Made by a program: the position numbers and the translations under genes. 49,546 nt of DNA, taken from assembly GCA_035292745.1 (NCBI GenBank), contig DATDPM010000012.1:1-49546 (forward strand). The letters are read 5' to 3'. The stretch comes from Alphaproteobacteria bacterium (lineage in GTDB: Bacteria > Pseudomonadota > Alphaproteobacteria > DATDPM01). Positions 15,646 to 36,727 of this stretch are shown here, piece by piece (the first letter of the stretch is position 1; each line of letters begins with the position of its first letter). The notes under the pieces were generated by a model that was not told the origin of the DNA, ran no database searches, and saw only the letters and a list, made by a program, of their open reading frames with translations.

Positions 15646-15885
15646 CTAGCGCCAAACAGGCTTTCCGAGATCGATCTGGCTCTTGTCGGTCAGCGCACCG
15701 GCTCCGGCGCCGACGGCGCCGCCGATCAGCGCACCACTAACCGGGTCGCCGAGCATAAGCCCGCCGACGGCACCCACGCCGGCGCCAATTCCGGCACCCG
15801 AGATCGCACGGTCCGATGTGGATGTGCCGCAGGCGCCAAGAGCGATGGCCGAGAAGGCGGCCGCCACTAAGAAAATCTTTTTCAT
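15646..15885 (-). CDS. small glycine-zipper lipoprotein (79 aa)
   Basis: MKKIFLVAAAFSAIALGAC has a signal peptide plus lipobox, followed by Gly-zipper repeats (GAGIGAGVGAVGG, GGAVGAGAGA). The ATG at 15885 follows GGGAGA. The track start at 15975 lies in AT-rich non-coding-looking sequence. Confidence 0.7.
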   Translation of the reverse strand: MKKIFLVAAAFSAIALGACGTSTSDRAISGAGIGAGVGAVGGLMLGDPVSGALIGGAVGAGAGALTDKSQIDLGKPVWR

Positions 15886-16271
15886 GACTTGTCTCCCAAG
15901 CAGATAATTCTCTACTGCTACCAAATAGATTGGGAGACGAAACGCGGAATACAAGGAAATAAATGGCAATATCAAAATACCGCACTAATAAAACAGATGA
16001 AGGCGACTACATATTATTAATCATTATTGCATTTTGTGCGATATATATCAGTTACTTGCCGCAGTATTATTTCAGGAATAGGGTCATTTGTCACGAAAAC
16101 TGGGATGCTTTCGCGGGCACGGATTGCGGATGATTCACGAGAGCCACCAACCGGATTCCAATATCGCGCCGCTGCGAATCGTGTCGGAGTTTTTCGACAG
16201 TATCAGCCGGGAGCGGACACCGATGGCCTCGGCTGCAGATCCGACGCCCATGCTCATTATGGGTACAGGCC

Positions 16272-16358
16272 CTACCCCTCCGCCACTTTCTTCACCAAAA
16301 AATCGCGGAACGCGGTGAGCCGCCGTGCGTTACGCACCTCCTTCGAATAGACGAAATA
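16272..16358 (-). repeat. displaced duplicate of the last 28 codons plus stop of the lysR gene (copy A of an 87-bp direct repeat)
   Basis: Ungapped alignment to 17118-17204. It differs at 6 internal positions plus the stop codon (TAG vs TAA). Both copies translate to YFVYSKEVRNARRLTAFRDFLVKKVAEG*. Confidence 0.9.
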
Positions 16359-16373
16359 AGTCGTGCGCGTCCC

Positions 16374-16703
16374 CTAGCGGACGACGACAGACATCTCGGC
16401 GCGAGCCTTGCGCTTCGGTCCCACCGTGATCCGCACGTCTTGCCCGAGAGCCGTCAGAAACTCCATAAGGCGCTCGACGGAGAACGTACCGGATTGGCCC
16501 CGCATCAGCGCCGATACGTGCGGCTGCTTGATGCCGAGGATTTCGCCTGCCTGTGTCTGCTTCAATCCGCGCTTCTTGATGAGGCGATAGATTTGCAGCG
16601 TGAGGTGCGCCTTAAGCTGCTCACGCTCGGGGTTGGGGAAGCCCAGATCGGCGAATACGTTGCCGCTTCCTTCCTTGACGCGGGTGGTCTTTTTCCTGGC
16701 CAT
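16374..16703 (-). CDS. XRE-family helix-turn-helix antitoxin (HigA-like partner of the upstream toxin)
   Basis: 109-aa ORF with the HTH segment LKQTQAGEILGIKQPHVSALMRG. It starts 2 nt after the toxin stop. The toxin-first gene order is typical of HigBA-type modules. Confidence 0.75.
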   Translation of the reverse strand: MARKKTTRVKEGSGNVFADLGFPNPEREQLKAHLTLQIYRLIKKRGLKQTQAGEILGIKQPHVSALMRGQSGTFSVERLMEFLTALGQDVRITVGPKRKARAEMSVVVR

Positions 16704-16705
16704 GG

Positions 16706-17068
16706 CTAATTCTGCTTTCCTCCGTAGTTCCGTTCGGCGGCGGCAAGCCGCTGCCCGATCAGGTCCATTTCCTTCTTGGGTGTGGCGATGCCTTTCGTCG
16801 ATTTCTTCTGAAAGGCGTGGAGAACGTAGATCGCATCGCGAAAGCGCACGGTATACACTGTCCGATATGTGCCGCTGTCGTCGGCTGCGACGATCTCAAG
16901 GACGGATCGCCCTGCAAAGCCCTTGAGTGCCTTGACAGTGGGGTATTCCTCTCCGCATTGAGCGGCGTACAGCGCTTGTCCGATGTGCCGTTGCACGGCT
17001 TTCGGAAAAGCCTTGAGGTCTCTTCTCGATGACCCCACCCATCTGACGGGCTTCGGTTCGCCGTCCAC
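16706..17068 (-). CDS. RelE/ParE-superfamily toxin, phage Gp49-like / HigB-like
   Basis: 120-aa ORF (GTG start). VRWVGSSRRDLKAFPKAV...YRTVYTVRFRDAIYVLHAFQKKS matches the DUF891/Gp49-type toxin pattern as I recall it. It is tightly coupled to an HTH gene. Confidence 0.7.
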   Translation of the reverse strand: MDGEPKPVRWVGSSRRDLKAFPKAVQRHIGQALYAAQCGEEYPTVKALKGFAGRSVLEIVAADDSGTYRTVYTVRFRDAIYVLHAFQKKSTKGIATPKKEMDLIGQRLAAAERNYGGKQN

Positions 17069-17070
17069 GT

Positions 17071-17092
17071 TACGAATATACGTCTATTCGTA
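17071..17092 (-). promoter_or_regulatory. inverted repeat TACGAATA-N6-TATTCGTA immediately upstream of the toxin start, a candidate autoregulatory operator/promoter
   Basis: Perfect 8-bp arms at 17071-17078 and 17085-17092, 3 nt from the GTG at 17068. AT-rich -10-like hexamers overlap it on the minus strand. No Shine-Dalgarno sequence fits in the gap, so the transcript may be leaderless. Confidence 0.4.
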
Positions 17093-17117
17093 TATCCGGT
17101 CAAGTCCGGCAGCCTCG

Positions 17118-18005
17118 TTACCCCTCCGCCACTTTCTTCACCAGGAAATCGCGGAAGGCGGTGAGCCGCCGCGCGTTGCGCACCTCCTTGGAATAGACGA
17201 AATACGCCTCGACCTTGTGGCCTTCCAGCTCCGGCAGCACGCGCACCAGCGTCGGGTCCGATGCGCCCAGGTAATCGGGAAGCGCCGCCACGCCCAGGCC
17301 GCATTGCACCGCGCGGAATACGCCGTACACGGTATTGAGCTTAAGAGCCGGGCGGCGCGGGCGCGCCGGATCGGCGGCGAGCTCCAACAGCCAGCGCGCG
17401 TTGGGCAGCGGCGGCCGCGACAACGCGTCCCCGTAAGTGATCAGCCGGTGATCGCCGAGCTGCTCCGGCCGCTCCAGCGGCGGGGCTTTCTTCAAGTAAG
17501 CCTGGGCGGCGTATACGTAGAACCGCACCGTCAGCAGGCGCCGCTGGATCAGGTTCGGCTGCAAGGGCGGCGCCATGCGGATGGCGATATCGGCCTCGCC
17601 CATGGCGAGATCGAGCTGCCGGTCGTCGAGCACCAGCGTGACCTCGATGTCGGGATAACCGCTCAGAAACTCGCGGATGCGCGGCGTCAGCCAGATCGAG
17701 CCGAATCCGACCGTGGTGGTGATGCGCAGCGGCCCCGAGGGGCGCGCCCGGCTTTCGTACAGCTTGGATTCGGCGGCGGCGAGGCGCGCGTTGATGTCGC
17801 GGGTGGCGTCGAGCAGCAGCCGCCCGGCTTCCGTGAGCTTCAGCCCCCGGGCATGGCGGTGAAAGAGCGTGACCTTGAGGTTCGCCTCGAGCGCGCCGAT
17901 CTGGCGCGAGATGGCGGATTGGCTGAGGCTGAGCGCGCTGCTCGCGCTGGTGAAGCTGCCCGCCTCGGCCACCGTGTGGAAGATCCGGAGCTTGTCCCAA
18001 TCCAT
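17118..18005 (-). CDS. LysR-family transcriptional regulator
   Basis: MDWDKLRIFHTVAEAGSFTSASSALSLSQSAISRQIGALE is a canonical LysR winged-HTH N-terminus starting at ATG 18005. The track start at 18110 overlaps trxB. Its last 87 nt form copy B of the direct repeat. Confidence 0.9.
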   Translation of the reverse strand: MDWDKLRIFHTVAEAGSFTSASSALSLSQSAISRQIGALEANLKVTLFHRHARGLKLTEAGRLLLDATRDINARLAAAESKLYESRARPSGPLRITTTVGFGSIWLTPRIREFLSGYPDIEVTLVLDDRQLDLAMGEADIAIRMAPPLQPNLIQRRLLTVRFYVYAAQAYLKKAPPLERPEQLGDHRLITYGDALSRPPLPNARWLLELAADPARPRRPALKLNTVYGVFRAVQCGLGVAALPDYLGASDPTLVRVLPELEGHKVEAYFVYSKEVRNARRLTAFRDFLVKKVAEG

Positions 18006-19141: not shown

Positions 19142-21085
19142 TCAAAACCCGAACATATGATCGAAGCTGAAGGCCCGGTCCCCGTCCACGAGACCGTGGA
19201 ATCCGAACAGCCGGCAGGTCGGGTCCACGACCAAAACGTAGGAATCGGCGCCCGCCCGCTTTCGCTCGTCGGCCTCGAACATCTCGGAAACGCGCCAGAA
19301 CAGGCTGCCGCCGCAGGCAATCGCGACCTCGCGCTGGGCGACTTCCTTGCCGCCGCGGTCGCACAGGCTCAAGACGGTCGTGGATTTGGGATGCCAGGGC
19401 AGCGAGGCGGGGTAGATGAGATGGCACAGCGTATCGAGCGGCGCCGCGCCCAGCCTCAGGAAAATCCGGGTCGAGAGCCCGGGCGGCTTGGCCACGTAAG
19501 ACTGCGGCTCGTCCTTGTAAGTAATCGGCGTGTTGTAGATATGGGCGCCGAAGATGGTTTCGGCGACATGGCTGCTCGCCAATTGCTCGTAGCGGCCGAA
19601 GCCGTGGAGCCAGCCGTCGGCCTCGCCGCCGTCGCGGAAATCGTACAGGAACTCGACATGGCCGTAGCCGGCCGGGAGCTTTAATCCGTCCTCCGCGATC
19701 CAGGCGTTCACGTCCACCGGCGTGGAATCGCGCCGCGCGATCCGCCCCAGGTAGCGGCGCGCCGCTTCCGCGCCCGATGCATCGTAAAGCGCCACGGAAA
19801 GCGGCAGCTCGTGCTGGCAGGTGGACATCGGCGTGGGCAGCACCTCGGTGCGGAACGAAGACAGAGGCAGCACGGGAAGCGGCATGAGATAGCCCTTGCC
19901 CATGAGCTTCGAAAGCTCGGGGATGCGGGGATCGGGCGCGAGATCGGTGCGCTCGACATTGGCATGGGCGATGCGCCGCCGCCCGTCTTGCCGGATGACC
20001 TCGTAGCGGGGGCGGACGAAATAGCGGCCCGCCTGAACCTCGATCTGGTTGGGCCAGCGCGCCTCGGGCAACAGCGCGCCGATGTCGATGGCGCGGGTGC
20101 CGAAGGCGGGCACGCTCACGTCGGACCACGAGACATCCTGGGAGCCCATGATGTTGACGCCGATGCCGCCGGGCGGGATCGCCACCGGGTGGCTGTTCTG
20201 GATCCACAGCAGTATTTTTTCGCCCTCCTTGGGGGCGGGCAGCCCGGCGTAGAGATCGGCCGGCCAGGCGTTGGCGTCATGGGTGCAGGACAGGCCGAGC
20301 CCGTCCGCGCTTGCGACATCGACCGCGTATTTGACCACGTCGTGGCCGGCCACCCGGAGCGCGTGAATGAACAGCGAGCCGGCGAAATCCGAAAGCCCGA
20401 ATCGCGCGCGCACTTCGGCGCTGTCGATGCGGAACGCGGAGTTGGCGCCGTCGAGCGGCTCGCGCCATTCCGCCAGCACATCCCCGTCTTCGCCGAACAG
20501 ACACAGCCACAGCTCCGGGCCCTTGGCGCCGTAGCCGGACCAGTAATTGGCCGAGGAGATGGTGGTGCGATGGCCCTTGCCGTCGCGCAGGAACCCGAAG
20601 TTGGTGGCGAAATTGAGCGGGTCGAGATAATTGCGCTGGTTGCTCAGCATGTCGTCGGCAAGGCGCAGCTCGTCGAAGGTGACAAGCTCGGCGCCGCCGG
20701 GAATCAAATTCCGGATCTGGTCGGCGAGCCGTTTCGCGTCGAAGGCGGCGAGCAGAACCGTGGCGGCGCGCGCACTGGGAAGCGCGGTCACGAGTTGCGC
20801 GGCGCGCCCCAGCTTTTTCGCGTTGGCTTCCTCGACCTTTTGGACATAGACGCCGGCGACATCGAGGCCGGCCAAATCGTAGAACGCGTCGAAACACGCG
20901 GCCTGGCCCAACGGATCGTAGATCGCGACCTTGCCCGACGCCGCAAGCCGTTGGCGCAGCGCCCTAGCCTTGGCGGCGACCAGCGGATGGCCGAGCGCCT
21001 TGAACAGCGAAGAGCCGCCCACGTTGTTGCCCGGCCGCCAGCCCTTGGCGCCAGGGTTGGTGAAGGTTTCGATGTTGAGGACCAT
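19142..21085 (-). CDS. hypothetical protein, 647 aa, no family recognised
   Basis: A long ORF with coding-like composition and no competing homologous ORF. No TM segment, signal peptide or catalytic motif that I can name. Ends ...FSFDHMFGF. Confidence 0.6.
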   Translation of the reverse strand: MVLNIETFTNPGAKGWRPGNNVGGSSLFKALGHPLVAAKARALRQRLAASGKVAIYDPLGQAACFDAFYDLAGLDVAGVYVQKVEEANAKKLGRAAQLVTALPSARAATVLLAAFDAKRLADQIRNLIPGGAELVTFDELRLADDMLSNQRNYLDPLNFATNFGFLRDGKGHRTTISSANYWSGYGAKGPELWLCLFGEDGDVLAEWREPLDGANSAFRIDSAEVRARFGLSDFAGSLFIHALRVAGHDVVKYAVDVASADGLGLSCTHDANAWPADLYAGLPAPKEGEKILLWIQNSHPVAIPPGGIGVNIMGSQDVSWSDVSVPAFGTRAIDIGALLPEARWPNQIEVQAGRYFVRPRYEVIRQDGRRRIAHANVERTDLAPDPRIPELSKLMGKGYLMPLPVLPLSSFRTEVLPTPMSTCQHELPLSVALYDASGAEAARRYLGRIARRDSTPVDVNAWIAEDGLKLPAGYGHVEFLYDFRDGGEADGWLHGFGRYEQLASSHVAETIFGAHIYNTPITYKDEPQSYVAKPPGLSTRIFLRLGAAPLDTLCHLIYPASLPWHPKSTTVLSLCDRGGKEVAQREVAIACGGSLFWRVSEMFEADERKRAGADSYVLVVDPTCRLFGFHGLVDGDRAFSFDHMFGF

Positions 21086-35251: not shown

Positions 35252-35328
35252 GGGCCCGTAGCTCAACTGGTTAGAGCCGGCCGCTCATAACGGTCTGGTT
35301 GGAGGTTCGAATCCTCCCGGGCCCACCA
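35252..35328 (+). tRNA. tRNA with CAT anticodon, elongator type (Met, or Ile2 if lysidine-modified)
   Basis: Hand-folded cloverleaf: acceptor GGGCCCG/CGGGCCC, D arm GCTC-AACTGGTTA-GAGC, anticodon arm GGCCG-CTCATAA-CGGTC, T arm GGAGG-TTCGAAT-CCTCC, encoded ACCA. The 1-72 G-C pair and the lack of three G-C pairs at the anticodon loop argue against an initiator. The C4-G69/C5-G68 pairs resemble E. coli tRNA-Ile2. Confidence 0.9.
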
Positions 35329-35456
35329 AGCGGGTGGCGTTGAGTTGGAGTTTCACCCAAGAGACACACAAGTAAGTATTTGGTGTTTATGCGATTGTCG
35401 CATCGCTCTTGACATGTGTGCCAATTGGGCGTACATGACCAAGTCAGTGTTGTTAC

Positions 35457-35503
35457 CCACGTAGCGGTTATGCGGGCCGAAGGCCCGCATAACCGCTACG
35501 TGG
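35457..35503. repeat. perfect 22-bp-arm inverted repeat (hairpin, 3-nt loop)
   Basis: CCACGTAGCGGTTATGCGGGCC-GAA-GGCCCGCATAACCGCTACGTGG. It lies between a TTGACA hexamer (35409-35414) and the tacA-like start at 35536. Confidence 0.9.
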
Positions 35504-35535
35504 CCGACAGGCCAACGAAATGTTCGGGCAAGATC

Positions 35536-35832
35536 ATGACGGCGCTTCCAGCAAACGACACGCGCGCGCGTAAAGATGAGCGCGTGGCGGTACGGGTCCC
35601 GGCGGATGTCAAGCAGACGCTGGAACGAGCGGCGTCATGCTCCGGCCGCAGCCTGTCCGACTTCGTGGTCGAGAGTGCGTTGCGCGCCGCTCAGCAAACG
35701 CTCGAAGCGAGTCTGAAGATGCAATTGGCCGAGAAGGACCGTCAGGTGTTTCTGGCAGCTCTCGTCACTCCGCCGATGCCGAACGCTGCATTGATGGCGG
35801 CTGCGAAACGATACGATCGCGCCAATAAATAG
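35536..35832 (+). CDS. DUF1778-family (TacA-like, ribbon-helix-helix) antitoxin
   Basis: MTALPANDTRARKDERVAVRVPADVKQTLERAASCSGRSLSDFVVESALRAAQQTLEA has the pattern of DUF1778 antitoxins paired with GNAT toxins. The track start at 35416 reads through the hairpin and is unlikely. Confidence 0.8.
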   Translation: MTALPANDTRARKDERVAVRVPADVKQTLERAASCSGRSLSDFVVESALRAAQQTLEASLKMQLAEKDRQVFLAALVTPPMPNAALMAAAKRYDRANK

Positions 35833-35844
35833 CGGAACGAGACG

Positions 35845-36339
35845 GTGCCCGTCTCAATCCGGCCGCTCGGGAAGAAGCATGATCGGGCGGCTTTTTCGTG
35901 CGGTGTCGAGGCGCTCGACAAATACCTCCGCGTGCAGGCCGGACAAGACCAGCGGAAAGGCCTCGCGAGGGTATTCGTCGCGGAGGCGCAAGAACGAGGA
36001 ACCGTTGCGGGATTTTATACGTTGAGCACGATTAGCGTCGACGTTGGTGCACTGCCCGCCGAGCTTTCAGAACGGATTCCGTATTCGGACGTTCCGGCTG
36101 CATTGATAGGCCGTCTCGCCGTCGATCGGCGTTACCAAGGACAGAGGCTCGGCGAGCACTTGCTCATTGATGCCCTAAAACGCATCGTAGACATCAGCCA
36201 AACCATGGCGATCCTTGCAGTCGTCGTGGACGCGAAAGAGGGTGCGGTTTCTTTCTATCGGAAATATGGCTTCATCCCATTTCCGAATCGGCCCGATCGC
36301 CTGTTTCTGCCGGTAGCTACGGCCCGGAAATTATTTTAG
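35845..36339 (+). CDS. GNAT-family N-acetyltransferase toxin (TacT/AtaT-like)
   Basis: 164-aa ORF. KKHDRAAFSCGVEALDKYL, LIGRLAVDRRYQGQRLGEHLL (acetyl-CoA motif A) and SFYRKYGFIPF. It lies 12 nt downstream of the DUF1778 gene. Confidence 0.8.
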   Translation: MPVSIRPLGKKHDRAAFSCGVEALDKYLRVQAGQDQRKGLARVFVAEAQERGTVAGFYTLSTISVDVGALPAELSERIPYSDVPAALIGRLAVDRRYQGQRLGEHLLIDALKRIVDISQTMAILAVVVDAKEGAVSFYRKYGFIPFPNRPDRLFLPVATARKLF

Positions 36340-36363
36340 GGGCGCGCGTCGCGGCGACGGCCG

Positions 36364-36388
36364 GAGCCGGCCGCTCATGACGGTGTGG
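36364..36388 (+). repeat. partial degenerate copy of the tRNA(CAT) D-stem/anticodon arm
   Basis: GAGCCGGCCGCTCATgACGGTgTGG versus tRNA positions 35274-35298 GAGCCGGCCGCTCATaACGGTcTGG: 23/25 identical, including a 15-nt exact run. Confidence 0.7.
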
Positions 36389-36430
36389 AACGGCGATGCC
36401 TGCAACGTCGATTATGTCGATTACCATTAG
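36386..36430 (+). pseudogene. higB: 3'-terminal remnant of a higB (plasmid-maintenance killer family) toxin gene
   Basis: Encodes WNGDACNVDYVDYH*, matching the conserved HigB C-terminus (...NGDA....Y.DYH). Only 38 codons are open upstream (stop at 36314-36316) and they lack HigB character. The stop overlaps the AGGAG of the following higA, as in intact higBA operons. Confidence 0.65.
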
Positions 36431-36436
36431 GAGACC

Positions 36437-36727
36437 ATGATGATGATGAAGAATCCGCCGCACCCCGGCCGGATCGTAAGGCAAGACTGCATTGAGCCTT
36501 TGGGGCTGACGGTGACCGAAGGGGCGGAGATTCTCGGCGTAACCCGCCAGGCGTTGAACAACCTCGTCAACGGGCGGGGCGGGATTTCTCCCGAGATGGC
36601 GGTGCGGCTATCCAAGGCTTTCGGCGGCGGCCCCGAAATATGGCTTGGAATGCAGATGCAGTACGACCTGGCCCAGGTCCGCAAGAAGGCCGCGCAAATC
36701 AAAGTGCGGCGCTACCGCGCCGCCTGA
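36437..36727 (+). CDS. higA: HigA-family antitoxin (XRE HTH, addiction module antidote protein)
   Basis: MMMMKNPPHPGRIVRQDCIEPLGLTVTEGAEILGVTRQALNNLVNGRGGISPEMAVRLSKAFGGGPEIWLGMQMQYDL is the canonical HigA/VapI pattern. Confidence 0.85.
   Translation: MMMMKNPPHPGRIVRQDCIEPLGLTVTEGAEILGVTRQALNNLVNGRGGISPEMAVRLSKAFGGGPEIWLGMQMQYDLAQVRKKAAQIKVRRYRAA

What the first reader, a model, noticed from the sequence alone, without database searches (positions are those of the whole stretch)
16272..17204. HigBA-like toxin-antitoxin cassette bracketed by two copies of the lysR 3' end that differ only synonymously
The last 28 codons plus stop of the LysR gene (17118-17204) recur 846 bp downstream at 16272-16358. 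The alignment is ungapped, and similarity stops abruptly on both sides. The two copies differ at six internal positions, and codon-by-codon translation shows all six are third-position synonymous changes. Both encode YFVYSKEVRNARRLTAFRDFLVKKVAEG; the stops are TAA and TAG. Six of six synonymous differences would not be expected if one copy were a neutrally decaying duplicate. It suggests both copies served as functional gene ends in different lineages. That is the signature of an integrative element that targets the 3' end of a protein-coding gene and carries a replacement end, analogous to tRNA-targeting islands. The only cargo left between the repeats is a 0.76-kb toxin-first TA module with its own palindromic operator. 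No recombinase is present. This could be the eroded, TA-stabilised remnant of a larger island, or a minimal cassette moved by homologous recombination.
Basis: seen in the sequence. Interest (0 to 1): 0.72.

Follow-up and report, generated by a model that had tools for sequence, protein, structure and literature searches.

The report
Toxin-antitoxin insert with duplicated gene end
A small self-contained toxin-antitoxin gene pair sits at the tail of a regulator gene, between the gene's working last 87 bases and a silent-difference spare copy of them; this footprint is known for other 'addictive' gene pairs but has no agreed mechanism.

Summary
17118-17204 (the lysR end in use) and 16272-16358 (an orphan copy) align without gaps. 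They differ at six internal sites plus the stop codon, and all seven differences are synonymous.

Between the copies lies only a foreign Gp49/HTH_37 toxin-antitoxin operon with its own operator. It is lower in GC and is absent from relatives. A relative without the operon (L182) shows the orphan sitting where the native lysR end belongs. Eight strain contigs carry the same structure.

No integrase or transposase was found on the 49.5-kb contig. None was found downstream of lysR in relatives, and none of about 90 related lysR loci holds a second lysR end.

The same footprint recurs in this toxin-antitoxin family at unrelated targets: repeats of 21-253 nt, one of them with five of five synonymous differences. 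Random controls gave 1 of 242. The cassettes share no conserved ends.

This fits "insertion with long target duplication", described for restriction-modification modules. The integrase-targeted-island reading is partly supported: the architecture fits, the recombinase does not appear. The statistic from the single pair is weak (P about 0.09). The comparison of two orphan alleles, eight of eight synonymous, is stronger.

The parts
17118..18005 (-). lysR-family regulator gene (295 aa from the ATG at 18005), intact and in use
   Evidence: Pfam HTH_1 plus LysR_substrate. Gene callers on strain contigs give the same 295-aa product. Orthologues sit next to trxB in relatives.
17118..17204 (-). Proximal copy: last 28 codons plus TAA, contiguous with the lysR body. 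It is probably the replacement allele linked to the cassette.
   Evidence: It is the only copy ending in TAA; both orphan alleles and every native lysR end examined in relatives (L088, L091, L094, L095, L182) end in TAG. It is identical in six of the seven other strain contigs; L085 has two changes.
17069..17117 (-). 49-nt spacer holding the toxin-antitoxin promoter (-35 at 17103-17098, -10 at 17080-17075) and the 22-nt near-palindromic operator (17071-17092). The GTG start lies 6 nt after the -10.
   Evidence: Promoter scan, 10 of 12 matches. Palindrome with 10 of 11 pairs. The operator and spacing are conserved in family members.
16706..17068 (-). Toxin gene, 120 aa, Gp49-like (annotated by NCBI as RelE/ParE family; HigB-like gene order)
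   Evidence: Pfam PF05973, E 1.5e-20. 7490 homologues at E <= 1e-20; NCBI names the identical protein a RelE/ParE family toxin. No difference in this gene in any contig that spans it.
16374..16703 (-). Antitoxin gene, 109 aa, HTH_37/XRE type
   Evidence: Pfam PF13744, E 7e-27. Weak match to the HigA2 structure 7ewc and to 2o38.
16359..16373 (-). 15-nt junction between the antitoxin stop and the orphan copy. It resembles neither lysR nor other cassettes.
   Evidence: It carries 2 strain differences, both non-synonymous if read in the orphan's frame.
16272..16358 (-). Distal orphan copy: the displaced native lysR end (28 codons plus TAG), with no start codon and no gene body
   Evidence: It is colinear with the native downstream spacer, as in the relative L182 that lacks the cassette. 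A second allele in L081, L083 and L085 differs at 8 third-position sites.
15886..16271 (-). Native spacer downstream of lysR, including the AT-rich (35% GC) promoter region of the glycine-zipper gene (15646-15885)
   Evidence: GC profile. 16068-15575 aligns at 80% with L182, where it follows an undisrupted lysR. Promoter-like sites.

Best explanation
A bare toxin-antitoxin operon, running from its promoter to the antitoxin stop (about 0.75 kb), entered the flexible spot downstream of lysR. No recombinase of its own is visible.

The insertion follows the pattern described for restriction-modification modules as 'insertion with long target duplication'. The last 87 nt of lysR now lie on both sides of the cassette.

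The distal copy is the native end, displaced and orphaned but still attached to its native downstream spacer. The proximal copy keeps lysR intact.

The two copies are different functional alleles of the same segment. One possibility is that the copy in use arrived with the cassette from a related lysR. That would happen through a homologous anchor in lysR plus an illegitimate join 15 nt past the antitoxin, or through single-crossover 'insertion-duplication' of a circle carrying the operon and a lysR end. The other possibility is that one copy was later overwritten by homologous recombination in this strongly recombining population.

Post-segregational killing by the toxin would then enrich for and hold the rare integrants.

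Shown: the duplication, the foreign origin of the cargo, the empty-site layout, the lack of any integrase or transposase domain in the ORFs scanned, the functional-allele pattern, and the recurrence of the footprint in the family.

Inferred: the recombination route and the role of addiction.
For: 1. Architecture and polarity. The orphan is colinear with the native spacer of L182. Both orphan alleles and all relatives end in TAG; only the proximal copy ends in TAA.

2. No mobility gene. None was found in the ORFs scanned across the 49.5-kb contig. No terminal inverted repeats flank the insert, and there is no room for an attC site.

3. The lysR-to-dps interval is a general flexible spot without integrases. 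Five different cargoes occur in close relatives. One strain pair with the identical LysR protein differs by a clean swap of a 19-nt spacer for 1971 nt. In 70 GTDB relatives the downstream neighbours are varied and include a XamI restriction enzyme but no tyrosine recombinase.

4. Family-wide recurrence. Direct repeats scoring at least 40 bits flank the cassette in 10 of 64 loci, which are 7 independent contexts. No inverted control reached 40 bits, and 1 of 242 random 700-nt pseudo-inserts did. With 4-kb flanks, 6 independent contexts among 24 loci are repeat-flanked, spanning 846-2436 nt, with no integrase seen where the intervening ORFs were scanned.

5. The targets are unrelated. They are the lysR 3' end, a GHMP-kinase 3' end, a HepT 3' end, an MNT 5' end, a promoter plus signal peptide, an operon junction, and a tRNA-Pro 3' end.

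6. Cassette homology across the family runs only from the -35 box to 10 nt or less past the antitoxin stop. There are no shared att-like or end sequences.

7. Differences between copies lean synonymous: window 7:0, L163 5:0, L180 3:0, L129 8:3. Orphan versus orphan is 8:0, P = 1.4e-4.

8. The strains are recombination mosaics, with blocks of 5-20% divergence beside identical stretches.

9. Precedent. Furuta et al. 2010 (PMC2853133) describe RM modules inserted with imperfect repeats of 30-423 bp. These often span a gene's start or stop, carry no mobility genes, and lack a known mechanism.
Against: - No donor lineage with lysR followed by the cassette and no duplication was found. No conspecific empty site was found either; every conspecific contig carries the cassette.
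- The mechanism of 'long target duplication' has never been shown experimentally, so filing the locus there names a pattern, not a process.
- All differences from position 14 of the repeat onward sort cleanly into one allele per copy. That places the exchange point at the extreme 5' edge of the repeat, which is what a site-specific crossover would also give.
- Two family or neighbouring cases involve tRNA genes, which are classical integrase targets: L157, and the window's own TacAT islet beside tRNA-Met.
- The J-type orphan block also differs at 2 of the 15 junction bases. Simple import from a strain without the cassette does not explain that.
- Only 14 and 15 nt separate the cassette from the two repeat copies. 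This is tight for any random-join model.
Confidence: 0.5

Rival explanations
1. Site-specific integrative element. A tyrosine-integrase element targets the lysR 3' end and carries a replacement end, as e14 and phage 21 do at icd or islands do at tRNA genes. What remains is either a remnant eroded down to the toxin-antitoxin pair (a CIME-like element) or a minimal satellite moved by an integrase encoded elsewhere.
For: - The architecture matches icd / e14 / icdC (PMC13626634) and CIMEs that keep attL and attR but have lost their integrase (PMC5704250).
- The inferred exchange point lies within the first 14 nt of the repeat, as expected for a fixed crossover at the gene-internal edge.
- Two orphan alleles each look like a functional allele. 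Repeated integration at one site would produce that.
- In L157 an islet holding only this toxin-antitoxin pair is bounded by a 26-nt repeat of the tRNA-Pro 3' end.
- The window's second islet abuts tRNA-Met and has a partial tRNA repeat and a lone HigA, which are signs of erosion.
- Belot et al. 2026 propose exactly such streamlining of mobile elements down to toxin-antitoxin-only islets (PMC13617665).
- L163 compared with L180 suggests deletion between the orphan and the cassette.
Against: - No integrase was found in the ORFs scanned on the contig. The called genes within about 6 kb of lysR on the sister strain's 181-kb contig show none either.
- No other occupant and no second lysR end occurs in about 90 related lysR loci. 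No recombinase was found next to lysR in relatives.
- No repeat-flanked family member retains an integrase where the ORFs between the repeats were scanned.
- The cassettes share no arm or end sequences, and the targets are unrelated.
- Erosion would have to stop within 14 and 15 nt of the cassette on both sides.
- No plasmid, phage or provirus carrier was found.
Confidence: 0.3
2. A true target duplication was made at the moment of insertion, so both copies were native and identical. All differences arose afterwards. Under this reading they arose mostly in the selected, in-use copy, through mutation and allele replacement. The orphan is a young fossil.
For: - This is how Furuta et al. read the RM cases.
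- A 21-nt perfect duplication flanks the cassette in L154.
- Under a null where changes may fall in the constrained copy, six of six synonymous is unremarkable, P = 0.088.
- The orphan's GC3 has dropped to 0.75 from 0.86, as expected for AT-biased drift.
- Homologous exchange is frequent in these strains.
Against: - The two orphan alleles differ at 8 sites, all third-position (P = 1.4e-4), which fossils of one event should not do.
- pS between copies is 0.19-0.38. That is as large as the divergence of this segment from the most closely related other species (8 of 87 sites against L088).
- The TAA/TAG split places the derived state in the copy in use.
Confidence: 0.13
3. The distal copy is itself under selection because it is expressed. 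One route would be a C-terminal extension of the antitoxin by read-through of its TAG, which is in frame with the copy.
For: The antitoxin stop (16374-16376) is in frame with the orphan, five codons away. Eight of eight orphan-versus-orphan differences are synonymous.
Against: - Being in frame has a 1-in-3 chance.
- The two strain differences in the five linker codons are both non-synonymous.
- In other family members the orphan lies upstream of the toxin, or 0.5-1.5 kb away, so no fusion is possible there.
- No read-through signal is known for this case.
Confidence: 0.03

Closest known systems
'Insertion with long target duplication' of restriction-modification modules (Nobusato et al. 2000, cited in Furuta, Abe & Kobayashi 2010, PMC2853133)
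   Same: An addictive two-gene module is inserted with no linked mobility gene. It is flanked by a long, variable, often imperfect direct repeat (30-423 bp) that is single-copy in the empty-site genome. The repeat often spans a gene's start or stop, so neighbouring genes survive. The mechanism is unknown.
   Different: The cargo here is a type II toxin-antitoxin pair, not an RM system. My searches of the held library found no paper describing this footprint for a toxin-antitoxin pair. Here the two copies can be shown to differ as functional alleles do, which argues against a simple copy made on the spot. The DNA-breakage idea offered for RM enzymes has no obvious counterpart for a RelE/ParE-type toxin.
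e14 (and phage 21) integration into icd, which leaves the icdC 3'-end pseudogene
   Same: The intact gene runs into the element and uses an element-borne 3' end. A displaced C-terminal fragment sits at the far end. Differences are conservative or synonymous (PMC13626634).
   Different: e14 is a 15-kb prophage with its own integrase and SOS-induced excision. Here the cargo is 0.76 kb with no recombinase, and no related occupant was found in any relative.
CIMEs (cis-mobilizable elements), for example at the fda 3' end in streptococci
   Same: attL and attR direct repeats that include a gene's 3' end, no integrase, and small cargo (PMC5704250).
   Different: CIMEs derive from identifiable ICE or IME families and coexist with intact relatives at the same site. 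No such relatives were found here.
C-terminal displacement at rhs, CDI and T6SS effector loci by homology-facilitated illegitimate recombination
   Same: Incoming DNA is anchored by homology in the upstream gene. It brings a new 3' end plus a protective partner gene and pushes the old 3' end downstream as an orphan (PMC5361080).
   Different: In those loci the new tip encodes a different toxin domain. Here the new and old ends encode the same peptide, and the toxin-antitoxin pair is a separate operon.
Toxin-antitoxin-only islets in chromosomes (Belot et al. 2026, PMC13617665)
   Same: A toxin-antitoxin pair alone in a small variable spot with no mobility genes. That paper also reports a duplicated short sequence flanking one such operon.
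   Different: That example is a 24-bp palindrome resembling a Tn3 res site. Here the repeat is an 87-nt coding end.

Membership tests
Type II toxin-antitoxin, Gp49 (RelE/ParE-superfamily, HigB-like) toxin with HTH_37/XRE antitoxin | The toxin matches the family profile | tested here: met
   PF05973, E 1.5e-20, 73.5 bits against a cut-off of 23.9. No NCBIfam model and no PDB sequence match.
Type II toxin-antitoxin, Gp49 (RelE/ParE-superfamily, HigB-like) toxin with HTH_37/XRE antitoxin | Adjacent HTH antitoxin in a toxin-first operon | tested here: met
   PF13744, E 7e-27. The two genes are 2 nt apart on the same strand. The pair is conserved in all 85 family loci examined.
Type II toxin-antitoxin, Gp49 (RelE/ParE-superfamily, HigB-like) toxin with HTH_37/XRE antitoxin | Palindromic operator overlapping its own promoter | tested here: met
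   By sequence only: with conservation shown. Binding was not tested.
Type II toxin-antitoxin, Gp49 (RelE/ParE-superfamily, HigB-like) toxin with HTH_37/XRE antitoxin | Toxicity, and its neutralisation by the antitoxin | not testable with these tools
   Needs expression experiments.
Insertion with long target duplication (Furuta et al. 2010 criteria) | Complete addiction module in an insert under 20 kb with no mobility genes | tested here: met
   The insert is 759 nt between the copies and holds toxin-antitoxin genes only. No recombinase was found in the ORFs scanned on the contig.
Insertion with long target duplication (Furuta et al. 2010 criteria) | Flanking direct repeat longer than 30 bp that is single-copy at an empty site | tested here: met
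   The repeat is 87 nt. It is single-copy in L182, L088, L091, L094 and L095. Caveat: the empty site is in a relative whose LysR is 86% identical, not in a conspecific strain.
Insertion with long target duplication (Furuta et al. 2010 criteria) | The repeat is not a dispersed repeat family | tested here: met
   Only two copies occur in the 49.5 kb. It is simply the lysR end. The rest of the genome cannot be tested.
Integrase-mediated integrative element (prophage, island or CIME) | attL and attR direct repeats, with the gene end restored | tested here: met
Integrase-mediated integrative element (prophage, island or CIME) | An integrase in or beside the element, or intact relatives at the same site | tested here: not met
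Integrase-mediated integrative element (prophage, island or CIME) | Precise excision or circle formation | not testable with these tools
   Needs reads or PCR. No conspecific contig lacks the cassette.
Integron gene cassette | An attC site downstream of the cassette, and IntI nearby | tested here: not met
   Only 15 nt follow the antitoxin stop. The one recombinase seen beside a family member (L099) scores as Xer-like, well below the integron-integrase cut-off (33 against 265 bits).
Transposon, IS or MITE | Terminal inverted repeats and a short target duplication | tested here: not met
   No inverted repeat pairs the two ends of the insert. The duplication is 87 nt.
Homology-facilitated illegitimate recombination | Microhomology at the illegitimate joint, judged against the donor sequence | not testable with these tools
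   No donor sequence was found. A sliding identity scan of lysR against relatives shows no foreign tract.

The most novel reading that the evidence does not exclude
A toxin-antitoxin operon plus a neighbouring gene end forms a minimal mobile unit that needs no recombinase of its own. It would loop out by recombination between its flanking repeats and re-enter the homologous gene end of related strains by a single crossover (insertion-duplication). Cells that fail to integrate it would be killed or arrested by the toxin, so addiction itself would drive chromosomal capture. That would give a general route for the spread of bare toxin-antitoxin (and RM) modules. It would also explain why each orphan looks like a freshly displaced functional allele.
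Probability: 0.2. Interest if true: 0.75.

Novelty: new member of a known kind. Interest (0 to 1): 0.5.

Why it matters
How bare toxin-antitoxin operons get into chromosomes is still described as unclear (Belot et al. 2026). The 'long target duplication' route proposed for restriction-modification modules in 2000-2010 has never been explained.

This locus is a clean example for a toxin-antitoxin pair. It has an empty-site layout in a relative, strain-level alleles, and two copies whose differences show that both were functional gene ends.

The footprint also recurs in one toxin-antitoxin family. Seven independent contexts carry it in the 600-nt scan, and 6 contexts among the 24 loci that have long flanks. 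That turns an anecdote into something that can be surveyed and tested.

For annotation, such orphan gene ends should not be called pseudogenes of unknown origin. They mark insertion boundaries and preserve the pre-insertion allele.

Tried and rejected
- **Integron cassette.** There is no room for an attC site. The recombinase next to the family member L099 is Xer-like, not IntI.
- **Transposon or MITE.** No terminal inverted repeats.
- **Carrier on a plasmid, phage or provirus.** Plasmid matches reach only about 70% identity over 23% of the cassette. There were no phage matches, no lysR-end match in IMG/VR, and one distant toxin hit there.
- **Donor lineage.** A sliding identity scan of lysR against five relatives shows no anomalous 3' tract. 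Counts of differences in the 87-nt end do not single out a donor.
- **Conspecific empty site or excision product.** Exact-protein look-ups for LysR, toxin and antitoxin returned only contigs that carry the cassette.
- **Other occupants of the lysR end.** None in 80 GTDB loci or 10 metagenomic lysR loci.
- **Read-through fusion of the antitoxin with the orphan.** It is in frame, but the linker changes are non-synonymous and other family members cannot form a fusion.
- **Operator match at the repeat edge.** A 10-nt match between the operator and the 5' edge of the repeat (CGTCTATTCG, in inverted orientation) looked suggestive. About 0.3 such matches are expected per region, it is not at a junction, and I treat it as chance.
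- **Known RNA.** Rfam finds only the tRNA in the window.
- **Local tandem duplication without foreign cargo.** Rejected, because the cargo is clearly foreign.
- **First family scan was biased.** It used 600-nt flanks and so favoured small islets. I repeated it with flanks of up to 4 kb.
Full report
**What is there**

On the - strand the window encodes trxB, then a 295-aa LysR-family regulator (17118-18005). Next come a 120-aa Gp49-family toxin (16706-17068) and a 109-aa HTH_37 antitoxin (16374-16703). These are followed by an AT-rich spacer and a small glycine-zipper gene, with dps and an EF-G-like gene convergent.

The repeat finder returns an ungapped direct repeat, 16273-16358 / 17119-17204, 93% identical, spacing 846. 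With the stop codon it is 87 nt. A degenerate pattern of the repeat occurs only at these two places in the window, with none expected by chance.

Codon-by-codon comparison confirms that both copies encode YFVYSKEVRNARRLTAFRDFLVKKVAEG. There are six internal differences plus TAA versus TAG, all synonymous. One of the six is a first-position CTG/TTG change rather than third-position. Similarity stops abruptly on both sides.

The distal copy has no start codon. Five codons upstream, in the same frame, is the antitoxin's TAG.

The operon has a TTGACC-17-TATATT promoter. A 22-nt near-palindrome at 17071-17092 overlaps it.

**The cargo is foreign and the structure is real**

The cassette has 57-60% GC against 66-70% in its flanks, and GC3 of 0.68-0.79 against 0.85-0.9 for neighbouring genes.

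The window is a 49,546-bp contig of an alphaproteobacterial MAG. The next most similar toxin is only 84% identical, and named relatives lie in Acidobacteria/Terriglobia MAGs.

Seven further contigs from several samples and assemblers are 97.9-99.9% identical to the window. Each carries the same arrangement as far as it extends.

**Relatives and the empty site**

The best GTDB LysR orthologue is 73% identical. None of the 80 loci fetched has a second lysR end.

Metagenomic orthologues at 83-90% identity show that the interval between lysR and dps is a flexible spot. Its cargoes are:
- a molybdopterin oxidoreductase;
- two unknown genes;
- VTT, MIP and an unknown gene;
- a glycine-zipper gene with DUF3185 and DUF6134;
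- nothing at all.

Two contigs that encode the identical LysR differ by a clean swap of a 19-nt spacer for 1971 nt, with homology breaking exactly at the two stop codons. None of these loci has a duplicated lysR end.

L182 (LysR 86% identical, no toxin-antitoxin pair) has the layout lysR-TAG, spacer, AT-rich region, glycine-zipper gene. This is colinear with what follows the distal copy in the window. The distal copy therefore sits where the native end belongs.

Both orphan alleles and all relatives end in TAG. Only the copy in use ends in TAA.

**Population signal**

Against the sister contig L081, the window has no difference across lysR and the toxin. It has 45 differences packed into 16566-15928. 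Eight of them fall in the orphan copy, all at third codon positions.

Against L083, lysR itself carries 27 differences in a 490-nt block. The segment 17267-16567 is invariant in every contig except for two changes in L085. These strains are recombination mosaics.

Matched for mutation class, six of six synonymous for proximal versus distal has P = 1.4e-3 if all changes were unconstrained. It has P = 0.088 if half fell in the selected copy.

The comparison of two orphans, eight of eight synonymous, gives P = 1.4e-4. pS between copies is 0.19-0.38, which is comparable with the divergence from the nearest other species.

Orphan copies therefore carry the variation of functional lysR alleles. This points to repeated displacement, or to homologous exchange with functional ends, rather than decay in place.

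**No recombinase**

Pfam scans of the ORFs picked across the contig give core genes: uvrB, carAB, dnaG, rpoD, greA, metH, mlaAC and trxB. They also reveal a second toxin-antitoxin islet, but no integrase or transposase.

The immediate downstream neighbours of lysR in 70 GTDB relatives are varied. They include one XamI restriction enzyme and no tyrosine recombinase.

No close copy of the cassette exists in the plasmid, phage or IMG/VR collections.

**The footprint recurs in the toxin-antitoxin family**

A metagenome scan with a toxin alignment gave 80 loci, all with the toxin-antitoxin pair.

I compared the 600 nt upstream of the toxin with the 600 nt downstream of the antitoxin. Direct repeats of at least 40 bits occur in 10 of 64 loci, which are 7 independent contexts. 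Inverted matches never exceed 26 bits. Only 1 of 242 random 700-nt pseudo-inserts reaches 40 bits.

With flanks of up to 4 kb, 6 independent contexts among 24 loci are repeat-flanked. They span 846-2436 nt, and the ORFs scanned between the repeats show no integrase.

The duplicated pieces are unrelated to one another:
- 172 nt of the 5' part of an MNT gene (L129);
- 83 nt of a HepT 3' end, with two toxin-antitoxin pairs in between (L144);
- 196 nt of a promoter plus signal peptide (L133);
- a perfect 21-nt operon junction (L154);
- 26 nt of the tRNA-Pro 3' end (L157);
- 230 nt of a GHMP-kinase 3' end (L163).

L163 mirrors the window. The repeat starts exactly at the stop codon, and all five differences are synonymous. 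Synonymous to non-synonymous counts elsewhere are 3:0 (L180), 8:3 (L129), 4:5 plus a TGA/TAA stop difference (L144) and 4:6 (L133).

Nucleotide homology among cassettes runs only from the -35 box to 10 nt or less past the antitoxin stop. The distances from the cassette to the repeats vary: 0 to about 170 nt on the toxin side and 2-518 nt on the antitoxin side in the 600-nt scan. There is no shared end or att-like sequence.

**Comparison with what is known**

The architecture matches e14 at icd, with its icdC fragment, and CIMEs. Both belong to integrase systems with visible relatives, and none appears here.

The closest match is 'insertion with long target duplication', described for restriction-modification modules. 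Those repeats are 30-423 bp, often imperfect, and often span a gene's start or stop. No mobility genes are present and the mechanism is unresolved (Furuta et al. 2010).

[quoted passage not shown] About 10-18% of small variable segments in three species are flanked by direct repeats, mostly shorter than 30 bp.

A 2026 study of chromosomal toxin-antitoxin systems still calls their integration unclear and proposes streamlining of mobile elements to toxin-antitoxin-only islets. My searches of the held library found no paper reporting long target duplication for a type II toxin-antitoxin pair.

**Verdict**

The locus is a foreign toxin-antitoxin cassette that displaced the native lysR end and left lysR intact through a synonymous second allele.

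The evidence favours recombinase-independent capture by host recombination, the 'long target duplication' kind (confidence about 0.5). An integrase-targeted island, eroded or moved in trans, comes second (about 0.3).

That rival keeps real support: the exchange point at the very edge of the repeat, the tRNA-linked cases, and signs of erosion in the window's second islet. The mechanism itself is inferred, not shown.

I rate the finding as a new member of a known but unexplained kind, of moderate interest.

Noticed in passing
window 35252-36727: A second toxin-antitoxin islet. tRNA-Met(CAT) at 35252-35328 is followed by a TacA-like antitoxin (ORF 35416-35832; the true start is probably near 35530) and a GNAT toxin (35845-36339). 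GC here is 54-62%, against 72-80% upstream and about 66-71% downstream. A 25-nt direct repeat (23 of 25 identical) brackets it: 35274-35298 inside the tRNA's anticodon arm, and 36364-36388 just past the toxin. A lone HigA antitoxin follows (36437-36727; TIGR02607, E 1e-30) with no toxin partner.
   Followed up: partly
window 16359-16376: The antitoxin's TAG stop is in the same reading frame as the orphan lysR end, five codons away. The two strain differences in those five codons are non-synonymous, so a read-through fusion seems unlikely.
   Followed up: partly
window 17066-17080; L098, L129, L144, L180: The toxin start codon lies only 5-6 nt after the -10 hexamer, in the window and in distant family members. 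This suggests the operon is transcribed as a leaderless mRNA.
   Followed up: no
window 16344-16353 and 17081-17090: A 10-nt sequence from the operator (CGTCTATTCG) also occurs, in inverted orientation, at the 5' edge of the duplicated lysR segment. About 0.3 such matches are expected by chance in this region.
   Followed up: no
window 15928-17760 compared with L081, L083, L085, L087: The strain contigs are mosaics. Stretches with no differences abut blocks that are 5-20% divergent: lysR 17268-17760 in L083, and 16366-15928 in L081. This indicates frequent homologous exchange with diverged lineages.
   Followed up: partly
L094 2207-2227 versus L091 6888-8860: Two contigs encoding the identical LysR protein differ by a clean replacement of the 19-nt lysR/dps spacer with 1971 nt carrying two unknown genes. 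Homology breaks exactly at the two stop codons, and there are no repeats.
   Followed up: yes
L098 3299-4595: Two adjacent cassettes, the toxin-antitoxin pair and a 144-aa membrane-like ORF, are separated by three related 22-23-nt repeats. The last repeat is the true 3' end plus stop of a convergent GH172 gene, and the middle one is a hybrid. This looks like successive insertions at one gene end.
   Followed up: partly
L099 5696-5820: Immediately after the antitoxin stop lies a 3'-end fragment of a tyrosine recombinase gene (…LGHTQLTTTAIYADA…). An intact Xer-like recombinase lies divergently upstream. The cassette seems to have landed in or beside a recombinase gene.
   Followed up: no
L163 2259-4924 and L180 8-1286: These are related contexts at a GHMP kinase gene. 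L163 has a 230-nt 3'-end duplication with 1.5 kb of unknown DNA between the orphan and the toxin. In L180 a 92-nt internal kinase fragment directly abuts the operator. Later deletion between the orphan and the cassette would explain this.
   Followed up: partly
window 19142-21085: A 647-aa protein next to trxB has no Pfam match, yet it is conserved at the same position in relatives (647 or 645 aa in L088 and L091).
   Followed up: no
A4 (downstream neighbours of lysR in GTDB relatives): One relative carries a XamI-type restriction endonuclease directly downstream of lysR. This is another addiction-type module in the same flexible spot.
   Followed up: no
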